From: Stylophora pistillata
Taxonomy: Eukaryota
Assembly: GCF_002571385.2 (NCBI RefSeq)
Contig: NW_019218081.1
Coordinates: 65,855-125,442 of the forward strand
Reading direction: 5' to 3'
DNA length: 59,588 nucleotides
The notes beneath the pieces are model-generated. The model had not been told where the DNA came from. It saw only the letters and a list, made by a program, of their open reading frames with translations, and did not search any database. Below are positions 41,423 to 56,303 of this stretch, piece after piece; the first letter of the stretch is position 1; every line of letters begins with the position of its first letter. The position numbers and the translations under genes were made by a program.

Positions 41423-42831
41423 GGATATAAACTCAAGAAGTTTTTACACACTTTACTCTGGCTAAGTAGAGTGTTTTTGTCGATTGAACCCTTTCACTCC
41501 CAAGACAGAACTTCTCCTTACGATATCAGTACAAAATGAAGTAGCTAAGTGATGCGAATAAAGAAAATCATCAATTAAGGGACTATAAGTTGAACCGATA
41601 CCAAATTCTCCATTTCAAAATCTTAAGAATTGTGTGGCACACGGTAGGGAGAATTACTAATTAGAACTTGAGAGTTATAGGGTTAATGAGCGTCAAACTT
41701 GTAATTAGTTTGACATTTTTGCGTTTATCCTGTTGTACTGTAAATCGCCAAATCAAGCGTCCCCACTCAAGTGGCCGCTCTTGGAAAGCTAGGGTTAAAT
41801 CGCCTCTTAATAAGGGGCTTAACCGTATTTTTGTTGTCTGTAATTCAGTATCGTACTGTGTGTGTGTGTCTTTTTTTTTTTGTTTGTTTGTTTGTTTTTT
41901 TTTCTTTGTGCCTTTATTTTATATTATAAGGAAAGGGAAAAAGTGTGAGCCGTGTAGCGATTTTTAAAAATAAGGAAAATTGCTTAAATCCTAAGTAACT
42001 ACAGACAAAGAGAAGAGTATAATCCCTTCCTCCCGGCCACCTGTGCACTGAAATCTTTAACTTGGGTTACTTGGCAAGATGGATGGAGGGCAAAACTATC
42101 CTCAGTAGGGTAGTGGTAGTGTATTGCCGTGAATTCTGGATTTCTTTAGTTGAACGCCCAACAACCGAACGTGACACCATGCTAAATAGAAAAAGTACTA
42201 TGATCGAACAAATAGCTGGAAAAAATAGTATGGCGGTTTATTACAAAAGGCTTTAGTAATTTTATTTTCCGATTTAAGCTAAGATTAAGGGAGCACTTAA
42301 TTTCGGCTTGCCCTTTTTCACTCTCAGCTAACGGTTAGTCGGGTGAGTGAGTGAGTCGCAGTTGCGCTAATGCGCGCGAAAATTTCTCCCTTTCCAGTTT
42401 ACCGCAAGCGCTGTCATTTGCATGACTTAAAAGTGAGACAAAACTGGTGACAATTCCCCCATATCGTTATTTCCTGTTTTTGTCTTTGAAATATTCCATA
42501 ATGATACTTAATAAATATTTCTTCTAGAAATTTGCACTCTGTTTCTTCACGATTGTGTAGATAAGCGAACGTTTGTATAAATAATTCGGTAGTTAATATT
42601 AACTTTTCTTATTGGCTACCATTTTCCCTTGTTTGAGATGTAAATAATTTTCCAACATAGTATCGATCTATTCAGTATGATCTGAAAGTTTTACGAAAAT
42701 ACAGGTGTACCCTCTTTTTCGGGGTAAGACCTTAGATCATATATTACATTTTCATCTTGATATGGCGACATTTAAGCTTAATTTATGCGTACTTAAATCG
42801 AAATTCGCCTCAAACTGTTTTACCTCAGTGT

Positions 42832-43686
42832 TTACATTGTACGATTGAGTTCGTCGCTTTCGTCTTCAACCTCTTCCAATACATTATCTACACCATTTCC
42901 CGCCTTTAGAAACCGTCCGGCATTAGACAGAGCTGGTGCTGAACCCCATTGGGTTGGCTTAAAAGTCATGGTTTTATTAAACTCCTCTAAATCTTCCTTT
43001 TCGCTAATATTCATCAAACCTTGATATGCGCGTGTATACAGCTCCATTGACCGGGCTAACAGCTCCATCTCGCAGACCACAAACTCCGAGAAAATCTGCT
43101 TCACATCCCGCATCTTTTGACTTTCGAACTCGTTCATCTGTTCGCGTAAAACCCTCAGCGATCGGTTCGCTTCGCCAGACGCCTTCTGAAATTCAGCCTG
43201 AGCTCTGGCGATCCGCGTTCGATCAGTAGATTTCATCTGTGCTTTTTCGAGATTCTCGAATGACTTCACCTCCCTAGTGGAGAGAGACGAACTAACCCTC
43301 ACGTCGTTCCTCGCCTGCTTGCATTTCGTGTCGTACACGCTGAGTCCTTGAACGAGTTTCTCTTCAATTTTGCTAACCTCTGTGTCTCGTTGATCCTGAA
43401 TGGCGGACAAACATTCAGACATGGTTGTAAGGCCTTGCTTTAATGAGGGAGATTCTTCTTCCGCATAGGCCGTTATTGTCTTGGCCAGCTCGTCGCCCTT
43501 GTTTCGTAATTTCGCTGTTCCTACTGCGTAGCGTTGAAGCATCGCCGCCACCTTGGGAAAATGCGTTTCAACAATGAATATTTTTCTGTCGATAACTTTG
43601 GTTTGGTGTTCGGTAGCCTTGACAGAGGCTTTTAAATCTGGAAGCGATCCTGTAAAATTTCGATCTTCTCGGTTGAGGCGAGCCAT
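42832..43686 (-). CDS. CIBAR1: FAM92/CIBAR-family BAR domain protein, intronless
   Basis: VETHF..Y...TAKLRNKGDEL..YA..E.P.LK.GL, QDQRDTEV and FESQKMRDVKQIFSEF..EM..R.MELYT.AYQ..NI.E.EDLE match FAM92A along its length. Orthology to CIBAR1 versus a paralogue is not established. Confidence 0.85.
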   Translation of the reverse strand: MARLNREDRNFTGSLPDLKASVKATEHQTKVIDRKIFIVETHFPKVAAMLQRYAVGTAKLRNKGDELAKTITAYAEEESPSLKQGLTTMSECLSAIQDQRDTEVSKIEEKLVQGLSVYDTKCKQARNDVRVSSSLSTREVKSFENLEKAQMKSTDRTRIARAQAEFQKASGEANRSLRVLREQMNEFESQKMRDVKQIFSEFVVCEMELLARSMELYTRAYQGLMNISEKEDLEEFNKTMTFKPTQWGSAPALSNAGRFLKAGNGVDNVLEEVEDESDELNRTM

Positions 43687-44409
43687 CGATTTAAAAAGTT
43701 ATTAAGACAGTGTTACTGTGTTTGTTATGCGAATCTTTCGTTTCAAAAGTCGCGTGCTTGCGTTGTTATCTTCAAATCAGAACAATTAAAAGTCACGGCG
43801 ACGTCTTCAGTTAAAATTTGCATGTGAAAGAAATTCACCGTTGCGTTACGGATCATGTGCTGTTCTTCAAGCTGGTGCCATATTGATCAGTCAAGAAAAG
43901 AAAACTACTCATGAGCTATTTTTAGCGATAACTTTGTCACGCGACTGTTTACAGCTTCCAAAGATCATCTGAAACCAGGTCCTGCTGGTCTTTTACACAG
44001 ATTCGGAACTTTTAAGTGGAAGATTGTCATCTATGCCGTGTAGCAGAATAATATTTGAGGACTTGGTTTTGACGATGACAAATTCTGTAGGAATGACTGC
44101 AACCTCTACTAGAAGTGATTTTCCCTTTTTTCCGCCCTGTTTGTTCCTATTGGATAGATACCTATTACATAATCTGGATTCTAATTGATAAGCACACCTT
44201 TAACCGCAGTCACGTGATTATCGATATATCTAACACAATATTAAGCTCATTGGTCTGTTCACGCGTTACTCTATAATAGTATACATCGGAAAATCAATAG
44301 AAATATTAGTTTAGCACATAAGTAGTTTTACTCGTGAACTGAGCTGTAGTATTTTGCCTCCACTTTGTATATATTTAGTAATTTTATTATTTACATTTCA
44401 ACGCTACGC

Positions 44410-44632
44410 AATAGTCTTTTTTACAGTTGTGGGCTTGGTGGCCAAGTCTTTGAACAGGAGTGAGGCTTAGGGTGACCTTGTTATGATAGAGATGTTGCTG
44501 CTTTTCAAATGCAAAATTTTTTTTTGTTATCATGCTAACTAGAAACAGGTCTCTATCACAACAGGGTTACCCTTAGCCTCACTCCTGTTCAAATGCTTGG
44601 CCACCAAGCCCACAACTCTAAAAGGGACTATT
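44410..44632. mobile_element. MITE with ~80-bp TIRs (AATAG...CTATT ends)
   Basis: AATAGTCTTTTTTACAGTTGTGGGCTTGGTGGCCAAG..GAACAGGAGTGAGGCT / AGCCTCACTCCTGTTC..CTTGGCCACCAAGCCCACAACT.TAAAAGGGACTATT. Confidence 0.85.
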
Positions 44633-47039
44633 CAGCCCTTGGCTGCTATGTATTGTTTTGGTTTTGTTTTGGTTTTGTTTCTGCTATGTATTGTTTTGGT
44701 GCTTGGCCACCAAGCCCACAACTGTAAAAGGGACTATTCAGCCCTTGGCTGCTATGTATTGTTTTGGTTTTGTTTTGGTTTTGTTTCTGCTATGTATTGT
44801 TTTGGTGCTTGGCCACCAAGCCCACAACTGTAAAAGGGACTATTCAGCCCTTGGCTGCTATGTATTGTTTTGGTTTTGTTTTGGTTTTGTTTCTGCTATG
44901 TATTGTTTTGGTGCTTGGCCACCAAGCCCACAACTGTAAAAGGGACTATTCAGCCCTTGGCTGCTATGTATTGTTTTGGTTTTGTTTTGGTTTTGTTTCT
45001 GCTATGTATTGTTTTGGTGCTTGGCCACCAAGCCCACAACTGTAAAAGGGACTATTCAGCCCTTGGCTGCTATGTATTGTTTTGGTTTTGTTTTGGTTTT
45101 GTTTCTGCTATGTATTGTTTTGGTGCTTGGCCACCAAGCCCACAACTGTAAAAGGGACTATTCAGCCCTTGGCTGCTATGTATTGTTTTGGTTTTGTTTT
45201 GGTTTTGTTTCTGCTATGTATTGTTTTGGTGCTTGGCCACCAAGCCCACAACTGTAAAAGGGACTATTCAGCCCTTGGCTGCTATGTATTGTTTTGGTTT
45301 TGTTTTGGTTTTGTTTCTGCTATGTATTGTTTTGGTGCTTGGCCACCAAGCCCACAACTGTAAAAGGGACTATTCAGCCCTTGGCTGCTATGTATTGTTT
45401 TGGTTTTGTTTTGGTTTTGTTTCTGCTATGTATTGTTTTGGTGCTTGGCCACCAAGCCCACAACTGTAAAAGGGACTATTCAGCCCTTGGCTGCTATGTA
45501 TTGTTTTGGTTTTGTTTTGGTTTTGTTTCTGCTATGTATTGTTTTGGTGCTTGGCCACCAAGCCCACAACTGTAAAAGGGACTATTCAGCCCTTGGCTGC
45601 TATGTATTGTTTTGGTTTTGTTTTGGTTTTGTTTCTGCTATGTATTGTTTTGGTGCTTGGCCACCAAGCCCACAACTGTAAAAGGGACTATTCAGCCCTT
45701 GGCTGCTATGTATTGTTTTGGTTTTGTTTTGGTTTTGTTTCTGCTATGTATTGTTTTGGTGCTTGGCCACCAAGCCCACAACTGTAAAAGGGACTATTCA
45801 GCCCTTGGCTGCTATGTATTGTTTTGGTTTTGTTTTGGTTTTGTTTCTGCTATGTATTGTTTTGGTGCTTGGCCACCAAGCCCACAACTGTAAAAGGGAC
45901 TATTCAGCCCTTGGCTGCTATGTATTGTTTTGGTTTTGTTTTGGTTTTGTTTCTGCTATGTATTGTTTTGGTGCTTGGCCACCAAGCCCACAACTGTAAA
46001 AGGGACTATTCAGCCCTTGGCTGCTATGTATTGTTTTGGTTTTGTTTTGGTTTTGTTTCTGCTATGTATTGTTTTGGTGCTTGGCCACCAAGCCCACAAC
46101 TGTAAAAGGGACTATTCAGCCCTTGGCTGCTATGTATTGTTTTGGTTTTGTTTTGGTTTTGTTTCTGCTATGTATTGTTTTGGTGCTTGGCCACCAAGCC
46201 CACAACTGTAAAAGGGACTATTCAGCCCTTGGCTGCTATGTATTGTTTTGGTTTTGTTTTGGTTTTGTTTCTGCTATGTATTGTTTTGGTGCTTGGCCAC
46301 CAAGCCCACAACTGTAAAAGGGACTATTCAGCCCTTGGCTGCTATGTATTGTTTTGGTTTTGTTTTGGTTTTGTTTCTGCTATGTATTGTTTTGGTGCTT
46401 GGCCACCAAGCCCACAACTGTAAAAGGGACTATTCAGCCCTTGGCTGCTATGTATTGTTTTGGTTTTGTTTTGGTTTTGTTTCTGCTATGTATTGTTTTG
46501 GTGCTTGGCCACCAAGCCCACAACTGTAAAAGGGACTATTCAGCCCTTGGCTGCTATGTATTGTTTTGGTTTTGTTTTGGTTTTGTTTCTGCTATGTATT
46601 GTTTTGGTGCTTGGCCACCAAGCCCACAACTGTAAAAGGGACTATTCAGCCCTTGGCTGCTATGTATTGTTTTGGTTTTGTTTTGGTTTTGTTTCTGCTA
46701 TGTATTGTTTTGGTGCTTGGCCACCAAGCCCACAACTGTAAAAGGGACTATTCAGCCCTTGGCTGCTATGTATTGTTTTGGTTTTGTTTTGGTTTTGTTT
46801 CTGCTATGTATTGTTTTGGTGCTTGGCCACCAAGCCCACAACTGTAAAAGGGACTATTCAGCCCTTGGCTGCTATGTATTGTTTTGGTTTTGTTTTGGTT
46901 TTGTTTCTGCTATGTATTGTTTTGGTGCTTGGCCACCAAGCCCACAACTGTAAAAGGGACTATTCAGCCCTTGGCTGCTATGTATTGTTTTGGTTTTGTT
47001 TTGGTTTTGTTTCTGCTATGTATTGTTTTGGTGCTTGGC
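44594..47039 (+). repeat. Tandem array of about 23 near-identical 106-bp units
   Basis: The period is 106 bp (ORF calls repeat every 106 bp). Each unit is 39 bp of MITE right end plus 67 bp of GTTTT-rich flank. The array runs into the N at 47040. Confidence 0.97.
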
Positions 47040-48619
47040 NGATTGGTTGAACCACAAGAGCAATGATTATACAGACTACATCGGAACTCGCTTGTACAGC
47101 ATCATTTTGGCTGTTTCGTGATCAAAACTCATCTCATTTTCTTGACCTTTTTTTGATAAAAAATCATTCCATTTGCGTTTTTTTGGAATTAAGTTGATTG
47201 CTTGCAAATCATATCTGATCCACGCGAGTCTCTGATTCTCTTGTTTTAAAGGCATTTGTCGGATCGTTGCTGAATTTGATTTAATTAATTGTCGCGTTCC
47301 CGATGCCGTAGACACGTGGTGTTGAGCACTGGAGTTCGCCAGAAAAACCGCAATGTTGAACTTTAGACAAGTGGCAGCATCAAACTCTTTATTCACTTAA
47401 GCTGGCAGTCTTTGTACAACATAGGCGGTGAAAACTATAGAACGGATGCATGAAGGTTCGATATAAGGAAAACCGAAAGACTACGAAACTAGAAATGATA
47501 AAAATTAGGAATATTACAAGCGTAACTTACATCGGATCTTGACTCCGGGGTAGAGAACTCCTAAACTCCGTTCGGCTCCGAAATGGTTTCGCTACAATGA
47601 TTCCTCGCAACTGAACTACTAGCTAATAGAAGGCGAATTTAGTTCTTACACTTTGACGTAGGGGAAATAGAAATGAACAGTGCTTTGTGTAGCTAGCTTC
47701 GAGCGGATATTCGCTAGTCACGGAATAGAAATCAAACAAAGCGCGCTAACAAATTTAATAGAAATTCATTGAAAGTTTCTTAGTGTCTTAGTGCTAAAAA
47801 CGGAAGAGTTGTTCATAAGTAAAAAAGATTAGAGTTCGTATCCGTAAACGTGACATTAATAGTTTTTAATAGATGTGCCCATGTTCTTAATTGGAATGTA
47901 TGCTGAAAACAATCCTTCTCACCACAACTGAATTGTTGCATTGTTTTGTTGTATTGAGCCCACACGGAGCTTAGCACGATTATTTTTGTCTCAACATATT
48001 GTAAAATTTAATACAATGCAATATCAGAGGGGTGTACAATTACGTAATTTGGCTCGAGTAGAGACTAAATAGAGCAACACCTTAAAACACGACACGGTAC
48101 CTTTGATGTTAGAGTAAACACAACTGCGGCAAATCTACAGTTAGCCACAACCATAATTTGACGCATACAAACGGTAACAGTTGTCCGATGGCTGGCTGGT
48201 TTTGTTTGACTGGTTATATTTCTGGCTTGAAGTACCTGTCGCTCATGATAAACGCTTCTTGAATTATTCAAAGCCAAGCGGATTTGAATTATCCTTGAAG
48301 CGACACTCTGTCTTACAAAAAAACAAAAAGCAACCACACCTGCTGTTGCTCAAAACTTCACAAATTTGATATTTTTCCAAGATGACTTCTAAGTTTGGTT
48401 CATACAAGCAAGCCATACGTTTTAGCTGCATGCGTTGCTGAAAAAGCAATTTTGGAAGCGGTCTGGCAGTAAAGGTTTGGCGACCACAATTTGTAAATTT
48501 AACTAGTGTGCATTGCGAGCAGAGAAAGTGTCCCACGAGTTTGAAAGCATCGAGAGATGAAGGACAGAAATACTCACTATCATCAATAAGGATCTACCAA
48601 GAACGCATTTTGAAGAAAA

Positions 48620-50410
48620 ATGGCTTCAAAAGGCGTTCCGCGAAAATCCGTAGCTTTTAGAGAGGATAGCCCGCAAGAAATCTGGTGTAAATATTGTAGT
48701 AAGACTTACGAAGAGCCAAAAGTTCTTCCATGCTTACATACGTTTTGCAAGCGGTGTATTGGATTAATTGCGGGAGAAAACGAAAATAATCTGTTTTGTC
48801 CAATTTGTCGTTCAGAGGTGGACTTACCCTCGAGAAATCTGGACGATTTACAGCCTAATATAATTGTTATCAGGAAACTCGAAGAGTTTGAGAGACAAAA
48901 ACTGCGACAGCGGGAGGAGGATTGCAGCGGTTGCGAAAACGGCCAAAATCTGGCTTCACATAGGTGCATGGAGTGCCAAGAATTTCTCTGCGGTGACTGC
49001 ACGCTCGCTCATCGGAGAGTTAAATTCACACGCGAACACAAAATTTTGTCTCTGGAAGAATTCGTGGATAGAACAAATCCGATAGAGCACTCAACATCTG
49101 TGGCTTGTGTTGCACATTTTAGCGAAAGCGTAGACATGTATTGCAAAACTTGTAATTTATTAACGTGCATGGAATGTCGAAGAGGGACTGTTCATGAGGG
49201 ACACGATATCGTGACAATACAGAGCGCTGTTGACTCGCTTAAGCCGACACTTTTATCGTTGTTGGACTCTACGCAGAAAAATATTCCTGTCTTACAAAAG
49301 TCGGTGTACGAGATTATTAAGGTTTACGGTCGGTGGCAGAATAAAATCGATGATGTATCGTGGCAAATTCGGAGATGTTCGCGTCGTCTTATTCAAGCCA
49401 TAAAAGAGAAAGAGCATCAGTTGCTAAAGGAACTAAACACCATCAGAGATAATCGCGCTTCTGTACTAGTGAACCACAAGGACGAAATTGAAAGAAACTT
49501 GGTCTGTACCATCGATGGTTGCGATTTCTCCGAGGAGATTATCAAACATGGAAAAGATGGGGACATTCTAGCTGTAAATAGCTTAATTTGTAAACGATTG
49601 TGTGAGTTGCAGGAGAATAAGACCGAGGGAGGGTTGAGTACTGTCAAAGTGGGGTTTGATCCAGATGAGAGGCCCATTTTAGAAGCTATAAAAGAAACAT
49701 TTGGCTCAATAAGTATAGGTCATGAACCCGAAGAGCAATCTAACAGCGAGAAACCTGATAAAGCAACTGAGAAATCACAACTAACGAGTTCACTGCCCAA
49801 TGGAGGCAGTTCTGTATCTTTTGCTTTAGCTGATGATGAAGAATCTAGTCCCAGTACTCTCTCTTCAGACTCGCAAAAGCCTGACAAAGGCATAAGTTCT
49901 CCTTCAAATGTGCCTGCGCTTAACCAAGATCCAAAGTCTACAAACAAGGCAAAAGGTCGTCGATTCAGCTTCCCAGCTTTGACTGTTGGCAAAAAGTCAA
50001 GTGAACCTGTCGGAAAGTTAGCAACGACGGAATTCCTTATTCATACAACTGACAGCCGAGGACGCCCGAGAGAAGTCGGAATACAGCTCGAGTCTCCGGA
50101 CGGAAGTGTCATTTCCGCTAAAGTCCTCGACAACAAAAACGGAACCTATTCGATATTCTACTGTCCTCGGACCCCAGGCGAACACAATTTGTTCGTGAGC
50201 TTGTCCAGCAAACATATCAAGCATGGCAGACGCCTCTTAAATTTTTACGGTTCTTTCGCTGGGTTAAAAGGCGAGGAGTTGACACTGATTTGTAAAACTT
50301 TGTGTTTGATAAAATGGCACGTAACTCCTGGCCTGGTTCAAGTGAAAGACGGCAAGAAAGTTCCGAATCCTGATATAAATTTACAACAAGTTGGTCAATC
50401 AGAGGCGTGA
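48620..50410 (+). CDS. TRIM E3 ligase (RING, B-box1, B-box2, coiled coil, filamin), TRIM45-like
   Basis: CKYC..LPCLHTFCKRC..CPICR, CSGC..CMECQEFLCGDC..H, C..H..YCKTC..C.EC..H..H and DNKNGTYSIFYCP..PGEH. Single 596-codon ORF. Confidence 0.9.
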   Translation: MASKGVPRKSVAFREDSPQEIWCKYCSKTYEEPKVLPCLHTFCKRCIGLIAGENENNLFCPICRSEVDLPSRNLDDLQPNIIVIRKLEEFERQKLRQREEDCSGCENGQNLASHRCMECQEFLCGDCTLAHRRVKFTREHKILSLEEFVDRTNPIEHSTSVACVAHFSESVDMYCKTCNLLTCMECRRGTVHEGHDIVTIQSAVDSLKPTLLSLLDSTQKNIPVLQKSVYEIIKVYGRWQNKIDDVSWQIRRCSRRLIQAIKEKEHQLLKELNTIRDNRASVLVNHKDEIERNLVCTIDGCDFSEEIIKHGKDGDILAVNSLICKRLCELQENKTEGGLSTVKVGFDPDERPILEAIKETFGSISIGHEPEEQSNSEKPDKATEKSQLTSSLPNGGSSVSFALADDEESSPSTLSSDSQKPDKGISSPSNVPALNQDPKSTNKAKGRRFSFPALTVGKKSSEPVGKLATTEFLIHTTDSRGRPREVGIQLESPDGSVISAKVLDNKNGTYSIFYCPRTPGEHNLFVSLSSKHIKHGRRLLNFYGSFAGLKGEELTLICKTLCLIKWHVTPGLVQVKDGKKVPNPDINLQQVGQSEA

Positions 50411-50431: not shown

Positions 50432-50522
50432 CCGCCTCCCGGTTAGCTCAATGGATAGAGCACTGGACTGTAGTGCGGGAGGTCGAGGGTTCGAGGCCCG
50501 GCCGGACCAACACTCAGGGTCT
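50432..50522 (+). mobile_element. tRNA-derived SINE head, truncated by gap
   Basis: CCCGGTTAGCTCAATGGATAGAGC..GGTTCGAGGCCCGGCCGGACCAACACTCAGGGTCT, same family as 41060-41422. Confidence 0.8.
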
Positions 50523-50670
50523 NNNNNNNNNNNNNNNNNNNNNGGGCTGGGTGGGTTAGGACAGCAGGTCCACATCAGCTATTACAGCTGCCAATTAATC
50601 AACCTGCTTAAACAAATAAATGAACTTGAACTTGAACAACTTGATAGTCATTAGCGTGACAATTCTTTCC

Positions 50671-50953
50671 CAGGGGCGGATCCAGGAACTTTTGATTGGG
50701 GGTGTCCAAACTTTGGTTCAGGAAGGACTGTTGGACTCTTGAGGCAAATTACTTCTCCCCCACACCCCCTCCCACCAGTCGCGGTTGCACGTTAAAATTC
50801 TTACCGTTTACTTGGATTCATTAAAAAAATCAGCCAATTAAAAACTGATATACGATCTTGTCGATGAAAGAATTTCAGTCTCAAAGTTGTAAGCGTCAGG
50901 TCTGATGGGGGGCGATCCGGACTCCCCGGACCCTCCCCCTGGATCCGCCACTG
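50671..50953. mobile_element. Non-autonomous hAT-type MITE
   Basis: TIRs CAGGGGCGGATCCAGG / CCTGGATCCGCCACTG. No clean 8-bp TSD. Confidence 0.8.
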
Positions 50954-53885
50954 TTTCCCTCTCCTCTCCATCAGCTTTCTCTTCTTCGAGACTACCGAAT
51001 TAAAATCAGACTCAATACGGAGCCACGATGGCCATTCTTCCCCTACTACTCCTCAGTGGGTTTCTCTTTTTCAGGACTAGTGAGTTCAATCAAACTCAGT
51101 ACGGAATATAAACCTTGCATATTTTTTGAAACGCGAGTCAAAATCAGTTTAGTGCACTGTTCTGTCTGTTTAATTCTTGGTCGTTCACGATTTGTGGACA
51201 CAATCACGTTAGAAGTGATATTATTTTGATATTTTCAGGGGATGATTGCCTGTTTACGAGTACAATAGTTAAATTTAGATTACAATAAAATCCCAACGAA
51301 ACTTTCGCGAGGAAAATCAATGAAGGGGTCTAACAGCACTTCTCAGGCACAGCAAATCCTGTATTCGTATCAAAAGCAGTATCTCCTTTAGTGATAAGTT
51401 ATCCCGATCACAGATGACTTGTCATAGATTCATTCGTATCAGATGAACATCAGCCCTTGCTTGTATATCAAACAATCAGTTATGTCGGCCAAAATTAAGC
51501 GCCGGATAGCAATTTCAATCACAGTTTAGTGAAAGGATCGTTGAAAATCTCCAGAAATATCGAGCATCTACTAAACTGCAAGCACGCTCGGCTGGGTGTT
51601 TAGGAGAGCACTTCCCATTCTGCTCTCTCGACTCACTCCCCTCTCCCTCTCTTTTTGTACATACCGGCCCGAAAGGACAGCTGGGTACTAGTGTGTTAGT
51701 GCCAGTATGTCCATCCATAGTTAGTAGACTAACTATGGTCCATCTCATAATGCTATCCGCACATAACAACGATCAGCCAATCAAGCAGCTCAAGTTTTTT
51801 AGAGGCTCAAATCTTACGTGAAAAATGGTCTCATTCACACCAGCCTGGAAATCAGTTAAGTAGGTGCAGAAAGTTGTTTAGAATGTTCGCCTGCGATTGA
51901 GGTTTGAAATCAGTCGATGGTTCTTGTCTTGCTTCGTGATATTTGAAGTTGTTACAGCGCAAACAACTAAGATGATCATCCATTGCTCAAAGAAAAATTT
52001 ATTTATTTTTCGTTATTAAAACCAGTTTTGCGACTTGATGTTGACATACACTGGTGTTTAACAGGATTACACTAATTTTCACAACATATCTTCCATATAT
52101 ACATATCGATATATTTTCATAATATATCTGTTCTCTAACGGCGAGGGCTTGAAGATAACGTTTGAAATTCTTCAATCCTTTTCTGCTGGACACCTTGTCA
52201 GCAAAACTAATGTATATATCGTAATAGATAACAACAGAAGCTGATGACCTGGAATCAGGGTTTTAACGGCTTCTGATAATAACAAACAAGGCAGGAACAA
52301 GGCATGAGAGGGGATGAAAATAAAACATACAGCAACTTATCATCATGTATGTCTCAGGCCTCAGTTGAAAGATTATTGCTTTGTAAGAACTCTTTAACAC
52401 TAGGAAAGAAATCAGTAAACTTAATGCCACTTGTTTTGAAAGGTATTTTTGAAATTATTCAATATTTTCATTCTCTAAATATTAGATATACTAAGTATAT
52501 GGAAAATGTAAAGAGACATTTCAGATCAACAGACTGTAATCCCACTTTTCCGAAAGCACTTTGCAAGTCAAGACTTTGTCAAAGAAAACGAATATCGTTA
52601 TACTAAAATCCTTTGAAAGCTAGGAAATAAATGAGATATACTGCTTTACAGACTATAACTATTGTTTAAGTTGTTCTGGTTAAAACATGGAAACCCCTGG
52701 TACTTCATCATTTTGTCATATTGATGTCATCATTTTTTCATATTGATATCATCATTTTGTCATATTGATATCATTTTGTTATTTTCCCTCTTGAACGAGT
52801 TTAATCAGTTCCCTTCCAATTCAGCTTTATTAAGAAATTATATTCCCTTGGCTTTTTTTTTCATTTAAGATTGAGTGTGTAGAAAAATTATAAAAGCTGA
52901 CCAGACTGATGAGAAAACCAAGAGGACATAATGGGATATAGCTATTTTTTCTTAGAAAAACTTAAAGGAACCGGTGATCATGAAACTTAAGAGAGAAAAA
53001 GGTTTACGAATCAGTGTATAAACACCGGATAACAACAGGGAGCATGTCGGGATTGGTTTAAGTTTTGCATCTGATTGGTCGAGAAGGACAAGTGAATCTT
53101 GTAGATCAATCAATAAGCCGGCAAAATCAATCAAGCCGGTAAAACCATTCTAGTTGTATGTTGTAGAGTATTTTGAAGGATTGCTATTTTGAGTATTTTT
53201 AGGTTTACCTTTTGTTTTTTTTAGTCTAGCTTTTTGTGTCGACGTGTTGTTTTTGTAGTTCTTTTGCCTTGACCTTATGTTTCTAGTATGTACTTAAACT
53301 ATTCTTAGTGCACAGATTTTTCTTGTTACCTTGTTAGATTTCATAATCGCTTGTTATGGTTAGAAAAGGCTAGTTTCATAGGTGGTAATGTTTGTGTTGG
53401 TAAAACTGACCTTGAGTTTTACGCACACTGAAGATCCTGTTTGTGCGCAGCTCGATCACTGGCGTACGTTTAATTGATTCCTTGGTGCTCGCCAAGTGCT
53501 TCGGGGCGAGCCACCCAATTCCCCCCTTTGCAAAACAACGAATGCACTCTGGAGTCTCCCACGGTCAGCTAACCCAAGTATGTCTGTGATTTTTGCATTT
53601 AATGCGTGGGCACTCCTTGCTAAAAGTAGAAGAAAAGTAGCAGCAGCAGTAGAGATAGAACGGACCTGAAACATTGTAGTAGGGAAGAAAAAAAAAGAGA
53701 GAAGAGTCCAGAGTCTCAGTACTTCTCTTTAAAAGCCAAGCGAGTGGTAAAGACCCCCAACACGTACATTATTTTGGACACTAAACTAAAAATTCCTCGA
53801 CCATCCATGCAGTGCTCCCCTACCTAATCACTGACAAAAGCAGAATAATTGTATTCGTTAGTTTCTTCTTTTAACTGGTTTATGA

Positions 53886-56303
53886 TCACTCATTGGGAAA
53901 GTAGAAAACCTTAACAGAGTTATTGCCGGCATCTGTGACAGCTACCCGGCCTTCAGGAGTGTAATCAATGCCTAGCGGCCCATTCAACTGCCCGTCACCA
54001 CTCGTTTTTCAGCCAAACTTTGTGACAAAACGCAAGTGCGAGTTAAACACTTGCACGCGATTGGTGCGATCGGAGACGAAGATGTACCCGGATGAGTCGA
54101 CTGTTATTCCCGAGGGATAGTGGAACTCTCCATCCCCGGTGCCAGGTCTTCCAAACTTCCGTTCAAATTTCCCCATCGGATCGAAAATTTGTACACGATG
54201 GTTCGAAGTATCTGTGACGAAAATTTCGCCTTCTTGCGAAGTAGTGATGTAGGAAGGGTTGTTGAATTCTCCATCTTTTGTCCCTAAAGACCCAAACTGG
54301 TTGCAGTAGACTCCATCGCTGTCGAAGACAACAATTCTGTGGTTCTGTTGGTCTGTGACTAGTAGCTGGCCTTCCTCATCCATAGCTACACCCGTGGGGC
54401 TTTTCAAATCCCCCGCACTCCGTCCTTTGCATGATATAACTTTAGACAGGACCCCATCCATACTAAACACTTGAATACGATTATTCTGTTGATCAGCGAC
54501 GGCTATTTGTCCAGCTTGAGAAAAGCACAGACCGGTTGGGGATTTGAACTTGCCGACATCTTCCCCCGAACTGCCAAACTGTCGCAGAAATCCTCCCTTA
54601 CTGGTAAACAGTTGAATTCTATCATTCAGCGTGTCTGCCACAGCTATGATACCATTGCAGGCCGCAGCCACATCACTCGGACCATGCAGCTCGCCTCTCC
54701 TCTTCCCCTTGTAACCAAACCGTAAACAAACAGGAGGAGACTTTGTGGCGAAGCACATGTGACCTTTCTTTGCGTCCACCGTGTAAGGACTCTCTTCTGC
54801 GTGTTCTCCGCGTATTAAAACCGAGATCACATGTTCTCCGTGAATTCTTGGCGTGTAACTGACGGTGTAAAGGCGTGAGCTGTTCTCAGTTATGTTGGAG
54901 GTGAGAATAACTAAGTCGGGAGTCTCGATGCGAACGTCTATGACGTGTTTAGATATCTCCGTACCTTCTCGCACAGCTAAAGCAAAACTTGAGATTTTGC
55001 CAACTGCGGCGTTGAACAATCCTTCCCCAATAAGTCGAACCGTAGGAGGCATGATGCTGCTTTCAAGTTTTCCACCTCTATTTATGACGTCGAATAACAG
55101 GTCTTCTTCAGTGACGTAGTCCAATTCAGGTCCTTCGGTTGGTGACATGTCCTGAATCAGGTTCATTAAGCTTTGCAATCGCCCCGTCATAAAATCTTTC
55201 ACCTTTGTTACTTCAGTGGCACTTCCTTCTCTTAACATCATCTCGATAAGTCCACAATTGCTTTCGATATCTCTGATTCCTTTGTACAACCGTTCCTTTT
55301 GTTGCTCTAGCAAAGTAACTTTGTATTCTCTCATGGCGCCCAAATCTTTTAACAGTCGCGCTTCTCTTTCTTTCAAAGCCCTGATATAGCGCGTTGTCGA
55401 GCTCTTAATTTGCTCCTCAATTGCAAGAGCGTGCTGTGGAATATCCCCGCACGCTTCTTCGATCTCCAACAAGGCCCTTTTTACAAAAGGACTCCTCATT
55501 TTAATCGCACCGAGAAGCGTGGATATTTCTTGCCTATGTTTGCTCGAAGCTTCCCTTAGCGGTTCAAATGTATGCGTTGTTTTGGGGTGATTCACAATAG
55601 TGCACTCTCTGCAGATCAGCTTGTCGCATGTCTGGCAAAAATACGTGAGCTCTTCGCGGCCATGATCTGAGCAGTTGTCAGCGCTGCACTGTGAATTATT
55701 ATTTTCCTCGTCATTGGTCGTCAGCTCATTTAGCGAGATAATTTGATGTTCTCTTGTAACACGCACCCTTCTATGAGCAGCCGTGCACTTGTCGCATAGA
55801 AATTCTGAGCAATCGCTGCATTGTCCTGTAGCTTCAGCGTTATCTTCGCAGTTTCCGCACCGGACTGGTACCTTTTTCTCTTCCAAGACAAAATTTCTCT
55901 TTTGGAGTGTTGCACCGATGAGAAAGTTGACTGGCAACTCATCAATTCCTTTACTGCCTAACTCGCTCGGTAACGAACATACTGGGCAAATAACAGTTCC
56001 TTCAACACCAGAATCGTTATCCACCAGACTCTCGATGCAACTTTTACAAAAGCTATGAAGACACCGCAGAAATTTCGGCCGACGGAAAAGTTGTTTGCAC
56101 ACTGTACACAGAAGGGAAGGATCGTTTAAAACATTTCCATTCTTCGCCGATATTTGAGAAACTTTGGATCCATCAGGAATAATCCCATTTCTTGTCATGT
56201 GAATTTTATCCAGGTTTTCGAGAGAATTCCAGCGATTTGGTTGCGTAATATCGTCGAAATAATCTTCAACGGCTAAACTTTCCCAGGTTTTCCAACGTCT
56301 CAT
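53886..56303 (-). CDS. TRIM-NHL protein (RING, 2 B-boxes, coiled coil, filamin, 6 NHL repeats; TRIM2/3/71-like) with an in-frame TGA at 54009-54011
   Basis: ATG at 56303. Five NHL repeats precede the TGA, and 40 more codons after it form a sixth repeat ending at a TGA at 53886. Confidence 0.9.

What the first reader, a model, noticed from the sequence alone, without database searches (positions are those of the whole stretch)
53886..54011. In-frame TGA separates a TRIM-NHL protein from its sixth propeller blade
Seen: ..FVTKFG-TGA-KTSGDGQLNGPLGIDYTPEGRVAVTDAGNNSVKVFYFPNE-TGA. The 40 codons after the stop form an undamaged NHL repeat, and the rest of the gene is intact. Established: NHL domains are six-bladed propellers, so stopping early should break the fold. 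Possible explanations are a recent nonsense allele, a base-call error, programmed readthrough or selenocysteine. The context UGA-A is not the strong UGA-CUAG readthrough signal, and I saw no convincing SECIS downstream, so a nonsense allele or error is the more likely default.
Basis: partly seen in the sequence, partly recalled or inferred. Interest (0 to 1): 0.7.

Follow-up and report, generated by a model that had tools for sequence, protein, structure and literature searches.

The report
False stop in coral TRIM71-like gene
The stop codon that cuts this coral's TRIM71-like gene short stands only in the reference assembly, while sequencing runs of the same coral and related corals read glycine or arginine there, so it is likely an assembly error at a heterozygous base and not a case of stop-codon recoding.

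Summary
In detail: an 805-codon TRIM-NHL frame (RING, two B-boxes, coiled coil, filamin, six NHL repeats) has TGA at codon 765, ahead of an intact sixth repeat. It is not recoding. The T of the TGA (window 54011) was seen in 0 of 8 sequencing runs laid on it: four read GGA (Gly, including both polyA RNA runs), four read AGA (Arg). Three runs of one sample that closely matches the window show both GGA and AGA, so that sample is heterozygous and the assembly holds a third letter. Orthologues have Gly (19 of 19 aligned; GGG in 6 of 6 coral DNA loci), never Cys; no SECIS was found. Best reading (0.7): assembly error at a heterozygous CpG site. Rival (0.27): a real rare or somatic nonsense allele; GGA-to-TGA changes are common in this genome's broken TRIM-NHL paralogues, and my test for an assembly-wide letter-conversion bias was negative. 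Earlier scan notes mention other breaks in this genome (unchecked). Ordinary; low interest.

The parts
53886..56303 (-). TRIM71/Lin41-like TRIM-NHL coding sequence, 805 codons plus stop, one uninterrupted frame apart from codon 765
   Evidence: coral orthologue loci align over 1-805 without an intron, 5 of 6 loci (the sixth is cut by its contig end)
54009..54011 (-). In-frame TGA in the assembly (codon 765); GGA or AGA in every run laid
54011..54012 (-). Polymorphic site: first base of codon 765 is the G of a CpG (GGC|GGA) in the Gly allele; alleles G and A on the gene strand
   Evidence: CpG read from the sequence
53889..54008 (-). Sixth NHL repeat (three strands of the last propeller blade)
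   Evidence: Pfam PF01436 31 bits; model strands 766-771, 777-781, 786-791 of P0001, pLDDT 81-91
53886..53888 (-). True stop codon (TGA), at the same place in coral orthologues
55977..56108 (-). RING finger
   Evidence: PF00097, residues 66-109
55557..55859 (-). Two B-boxes
   Evidence: PF22586 residues 149-188, PF00643 residues 209-249
54780..55046 (-). Filamin repeat
   Evidence: PF00630 residues 420-508
53889..54731 (-). NHL beta-propeller, six repeats, 24 predicted strands

Best explanation
The TGA stands in this assembly but in none of the sequencing runs examined, and it is likely an assembly error at a heterozygous base in an otherwise ordinary, intact TRIM71/Lin41-like gene. Shown: the species carries two sense alleles at codon 765, GGA (Gly, the state in other corals) and AGA (Arg), and one sample carries both. 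Inferred: that sample is the source of the assembly or shares its haplotypes, and the consensus put a third letter where the two alleles disagreed (an unresolved ambiguity replaced by a wrong base is my leading guess; how it happened is not shown). Inferred from family knowledge: the real product is an 805-residue RING E3 ligase with a complete six-bladed NHL propeller that likely binds RNA or protein partners; no recoding is needed.
For: Position 54011 (+ strand A in the window): C in X1, X9, X15, X17 and T in X2, X8, X4, X5; A in 0 of 8 runs from 6 samples and 6 studies. X1, X4 and X5 are one sample and give C, T, T. That sample is close to the window: X1 differs at 1 of 967 bases (this site), X5 at 5 of 3481, X4 at 7 of 3434; the tool flags X5 as a possible source. 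Of 25 variable positions this is the only one with two non-window letters; a private change would hit one of the sample's 9 variable sites in 3481 bases with chance about 0.3% (a post-hoc figure). Both polyA RNA runs bridge the site with GGA. Gly in 19 of 19 homologues with a residue there, of 20 aligned, in 28 of 29 further cluster members, and GGG in 6 of 6 coral DNA loci. Single N letters that keep reading frames (6 in the window; 7 in 256 kb of other loci) show that the assembly had unresolved single bases. False premature stops are a documented error class of short-read assemblies (PMC9516821, passages).
Against: That the sample is the source is not shown: at 55204 and 57218 both laid runs differ from the window. 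At six other variable sites of the sample the window has a letter that the sample also shows, so heterozygous sites are not generally corrupted. A test for an assembly-wide C/T-to-A conversion was negative (15 vs 11 mirror-class stops, p = 0.56), and only 1 of 150 listed 7tm_1 matches holds a stop. GGA-to-TGA is a common route to stops in paralogues, on both strands (7 of 51 stops).
Confidence: 0.7

Rival explanations
1. A real but rare nonsense allele: a third allele at a mutable CpG site, private to the assembled colony or somatic in part of it. The protein would end after five NHL repeats, keeping RING, B-boxes, coiled coil and filamin but with an unclosed propeller.
For: GGA-to-TGA accounts for 7 of 51 internal stops found in 32 of 80 paralogue loci (33 of the 80 were chosen because they showed stops; two of the 7 are a duplicated pair). 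36 of 150 listed NHL matches in this genome hold stops (my count). The strand-bias test for an artefact was negative. A public database protein (P0035, 764/764 identical) ends at this stop, but it most likely derives from the same assembly.
Against: 0 of 8 runs show it. If the closely matching sample is the source, its two alleles are already G and A. The gene is single-copy (one DNA match; next protein match 41-43% identical), 75-93% identical across the 15 closest homologues, and shows no other damage.
Confidence: 0.27
2. Programmed readthrough or selenocysteine insertion at the UGA, giving short and long isoforms or a selenoprotein.
For: An in-frame UGA followed by a conserved tail is the pattern such genes show; nothing else.
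Against: The UGA is not conserved even within the species. No Cys or stop at the column in any homologue; human TRIM71 has Ala. No Rfam SECIS match at E up to 10 in 50500-54100 and 0 SECIS-like hairpins in 3409 bases downstream by my own pattern, which had no positive control. Context is UGA-AAA.
Confidence: 0.02
3. The genomic TGA is real and is removed in RNA by editing or by a small intron.
For: Both RNA runs read GGA.
Against: DNA-type runs also lack the TGA; no joints, insertions or deletions were listed across the site; U-to-G editing is not a known route (recalled).
Confidence: 0.01

Closest known systems
TRIM-NHL proteins (TRIM71/Lin41, TRIM2, TRIM3, Drosophila Thin, Brat, Mei-P26)
   Same: RING, two B-boxes, coiled coil, filamin, six NHL repeats. 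Model matches zebrafish Lin41 filamin-NHL (6fpt, E 3.6e-39) and the NHL domains of Thin, TRIM2, TRIM3, TRIM71 (TM-score by target 0.92-0.95). 51% identical over 816 columns to a Nematostella protein named TRIM71-like by NCBI.
   Different: Only 34-40% identical to the solved bilaterian domains; one-to-one orthology to TRIM71 was not tested by a tree; RNA binding and ligase activity untested. The assembly, but no run, has a stop before repeat six.
False premature stop codons in short-read assemblies (PMC9516821; passages read)
   Same: A stop in the reference that the underlying sequence data do not support; that paper counts such loci as errors when 80% of aligned reads mismatch.
   Different: Here only assembled contigs could be laid, not reads, and the source individual is not established; the site is also a true Gly/Arg polymorphism.
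Eukaryotic selenoproteins and UGA-readthrough genes
   Same: In-frame UGA with a conserved downstream frame.
   Different: UGA not conserved, no Cys homologues, no SECIS found, no readthrough context.

Membership tests
TRIM-NHL protein | RING, B-box(es) and coiled coil at the N-terminus | tested here: met
   PF00097, PF00643, PF22586 over cut-off; long helix 239-349 in the model
TRIM-NHL protein | Filamin repeat followed by a six-bladed NHL propeller | tested here: met
   PF00630; six repeats and 24 strands when read through with X; fold matches
TRIM71/Lin41 orthologue | Groups with bilaterian TRIM71 rather than TRIM2/3 in a tree | not tested
   Only similarity ranks: Thin and TRIM71 score above TRIM2/3 by sequence
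TRIM71/Lin41 orthologue | Binds RNA hairpins through the NHL top surface; E3 ligase activity | not testable with these tools
   family knowledge, recalled; 6fq3 title shows the RNA complex
Selenoprotein | UGA conserved in relatives or aligned with Cys | tested here: not met
   Gly in 19 of 19 and 28 of 29 proteins, GGG in 6 of 6 loci, GGA/AGA in 8 of 8 runs
Selenoprotein | SECIS element in the 3' UTR | tested here: not met
   No SECIS among 4 Rfam matches at E up to 10; 0 pattern hits (no positive control)
Programmed stop-codon readthrough gene | Stop codon fixed in the species and kept in relatives, with a leaky context | tested here: not met
   Stop absent from 8 of 8 runs and all orthologues; context UGA-AAA
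Programmed stop-codon readthrough gene | Ribosome footprints or peptides beyond the stop | not testable with these tools
   no such data
False stop from assembly error | Raw reads of the source individual lack the stop letter | tested here: inconclusive
   Contigs of 3 runs of a closely matching sample lack it; raw reads not available, source not established
Pseudogene | Further disabling changes or relaxed selection | tested here: not met
   One stop only; synonymous differences outnumber non-synonymous about 3 to 1 on both sides of it; covered by polyA RNA contigs in two studies

The most novel reading that the evidence does not exclude
Codon 765 is a three-allele CpG hotspot (Gly, Arg, stop) in a conserved single-copy TRIM71-like gene, and the assembled colony is a somatic mosaic or rare carrier whose stop allele makes a ligase-competent protein with a broken propeller that could poison the normal one through the coiled coil.
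Probability: 0.15. Interest if true: 0.25.

Novelty: not a real feature. Interest (0 to 1): 0.07.

Why it matters
Mainly as a correction: the public protein P0035 is truncated at this stop, so the database entry for this coral gene likely lacks its last propeller blade wrongly. It is also a caution for the scan: a lone in-frame stop in this assembly should be laid against runs before recoding is proposed. The only biological residue is a common Gly/Arg polymorphism at a position that is Gly in all other anthozoan orthologues seen; it is probably tolerated, since repeat five has Arg and human TRIM71 Ala at the matching place.

Tried and rejected
1) Assembly-wide conversion of the C/T ambiguity code to A (idea recalled from how some tools pack letters; no paper held all four search terms). 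Tested on 80 paralogue loci: 15 stops of the predicted class against 11 of the mirror class, p = 0.56, Fisher p = 0.43. Not supported; real pseudogene stops dominate that set, so power is low. The first tally had a strand bug (all loci called minus) and was discarded and rerun. 2) The one 7tm_1 gene with a stop (C348): the stop lies in a variable loop near a scaffold gap and no close paralogue aligned; uninformative, not followed. 3) SECIS searches: nothing. 4) A second, intact genomic copy: none. 5) Paper search for TRIM-NHL + coral + selenocysteine (listing of 15 of 175 seen): no listed title or abstract start concerns a recoded TRIM-NHL gene; this is one search, not proof of absence. 6) P0018 (624 aa) ends early at another place; its cluster mate P0063 is full length with Gly. 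7) Region 53300-53770 is repeat-rich, so its differences were not used.

Full report
Observation. The minus strand holds a frame from the Met at 56303 to a stop at 53888-53886, broken once by TGA at 54011-54009. The TGA is codon 765 of 805. Pfam finds RING, two B-boxes, a filamin repeat and NHL repeats before it and one more NHL repeat in the 40 codons behind it (31 bits, cut-off 20). The six repeats line up by eye. A model folded with X at the stop and 20 homologues as alignment gives 24 strands in the NHL part; the stop lies in the loop after strand 21 and would remove the last three (pLDDT 81-91 there; whole model 66, the N-terminal half poor). The model matches Lin41 filamin-NHL and the NHL domains of Thin, TRIM2, TRIM3 and TRIM71.

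Organism and orthology. Runs that hold the stretch are labelled organism A or coral metagenome; named relatives are Desmophyllum pertusum (607/724 identical) and Nematostella vectensis (51%, NCBI name TRIM71-like). The gene is single-copy: one DNA match, and the next protein matches in the genome are 41-43% identical. The tail-to-tail neighbour at 48620-50410 is found in the same arrangement in 4 of 6 coral loci, so those loci are orthologous.

Relatives. At the stop's column 19 of 20 aligned homologues have Gly and one ends earlier. Of 29 further cluster members listed, 28 have Gly; the other, P0035, is 764/764 identical to the window's protein and ends at the stop, so it is most likely the annotation of this same assembly. 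Protein collections cannot show an internal stop, so DNA was checked too: 6 of 6 coral loci from metagenome contigs have GGG (some may be one species). No homologue has Cys.

Sequencing runs. Eight of 24 listed runs were laid, all as assembled contigs. At 54011 the window has A on the + strand. X1, X9, X15 and X17 have C (GGA, Gly); X2, X8, X4 and X5 have T (AGA, Arg); none has A. X15 and X17 are polyA RNA libraries of two studies and bridge the site by more than 200 bases; DNA in them is not excluded. X1, X4 and X5 are one sample and give C, T, T, so it is heterozygous here. It is also the closest to the window (1 of 967, 7 of 3434 and 5 of 3481 differences, against 21 of 2892 for X15). At six of its other eight variable sites one of its runs shows the window's letter; at two (55204, 57218) both laid runs differ, which a heterozygous source would also give now and then. 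If it is the source, a diploid with G and A leaves no room for T. The G allele sits in a CpG (GGC GGA), which explains a G-to-A polymorphism by the usual deamination route (recalled).

Mechanism. The simplest account is that the assembly consensus failed where two alleles disagreed. The coincidence is strong: this is the only one of 25 variable positions with two non-window letters, and an independent private change would land on one of 9 variable sites in 3481 bases about 0.3% of the time (post hoc, and CpG sites mutate faster than average). The assembly holds single N letters that keep reading frames, so unresolved bases existed. I guessed that a C/T ambiguity was turned into A and tested the strand bias this predicts in 80 paralogue loci; the result was negative (15 against 11, p = 0.56), and stops are rare in 7tm_1 genes (1 of 150 listed). 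So the error, if it is one, is sporadic and its cause is not shown. The same test gave the rival real support: 7 of 51 paralogue stops stand where the closest paralogue has GGA, on both strands. A rare or somatic nonsense allele therefore keeps about a quarter of the odds. The paralogues are a large, often broken family, whereas this gene is conserved and otherwise undamaged.

Recoding. It needs a stop that is fixed in the species; this one is absent from every run laid. No SECIS was found by Rfam or by a simple pattern (no positive control), and the context is UGA-AAA. Rejected.

Literature. Three searches (listings and abstract starts only) and passages of one paper, PMC9516821, which lists false premature stops as the rarest but real class of false gene loss in older short-read assemblies. 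No supplements were read; none is expected to bear on the verdict.

Earlier scan notes (unchecked) mention other interrupted genes in this genome, one intact in RNA from another sample and one with stops in some individuals only; they fit both the error and the real-allele reading and did not change mine.

Verdict. An ordinary coral TRIM-NHL gene with a stop found only in the reference; likely an assembly error at a Gly/Arg heterozygous site. Interest 0.07.

Noticed in passing
window 54011: Gly/Arg polymorphism at codon 765: Arg allele in 3 of 6 samples, Gly in 4 of 6 (one has both), at a position that is Gly in all other anthozoan orthologues seen. Repeat five has Arg and human TRIM71 Ala at the matching place, so it is probably tolerated.
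   Followed up: partly
window 48620-50410 (+): A second TRIM gene (RING, B-boxes, filamin; no NHL match in its 596-codon frame) lies tail to tail with the TRIM-NHL gene, and does so in 4 of 6 coral loci at 78-86% identity. A conserved, possibly NHL-less TRIM2/3-like protein; further exons were not looked for.
   Followed up: partly
genome G000, many contigs (L064-L143): A large TRIM-NHL expansion: 201 matches to the NHL part, many in tandem clusters; 36 of 150 listed rows hold stops. Looks like birth-and-death evolution.
   Followed up: partly
window 8564, 11100, 13392, 38245, 39331, 47040: Six single N letters; three lie in long open frames (511, 237 and 508 codons, transposase-like by eye) and keep the frame.
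   Followed up: partly
L032:1353-1355 (G000:C348, +): A 7tm_1 receptor gene with one in-frame TAA in an intracellular loop, close to a scaffold gap.
   Followed up: partly
window 53300-53770: High-copy repeat just downstream of the gene: contig depth hundreds to thousands of times the single-copy level.
   Followed up: no
window 42000-48000: Strong negative AT skew (down to -0.34), suggesting a low-complexity or tandem repeat tract.
   Followed up: no
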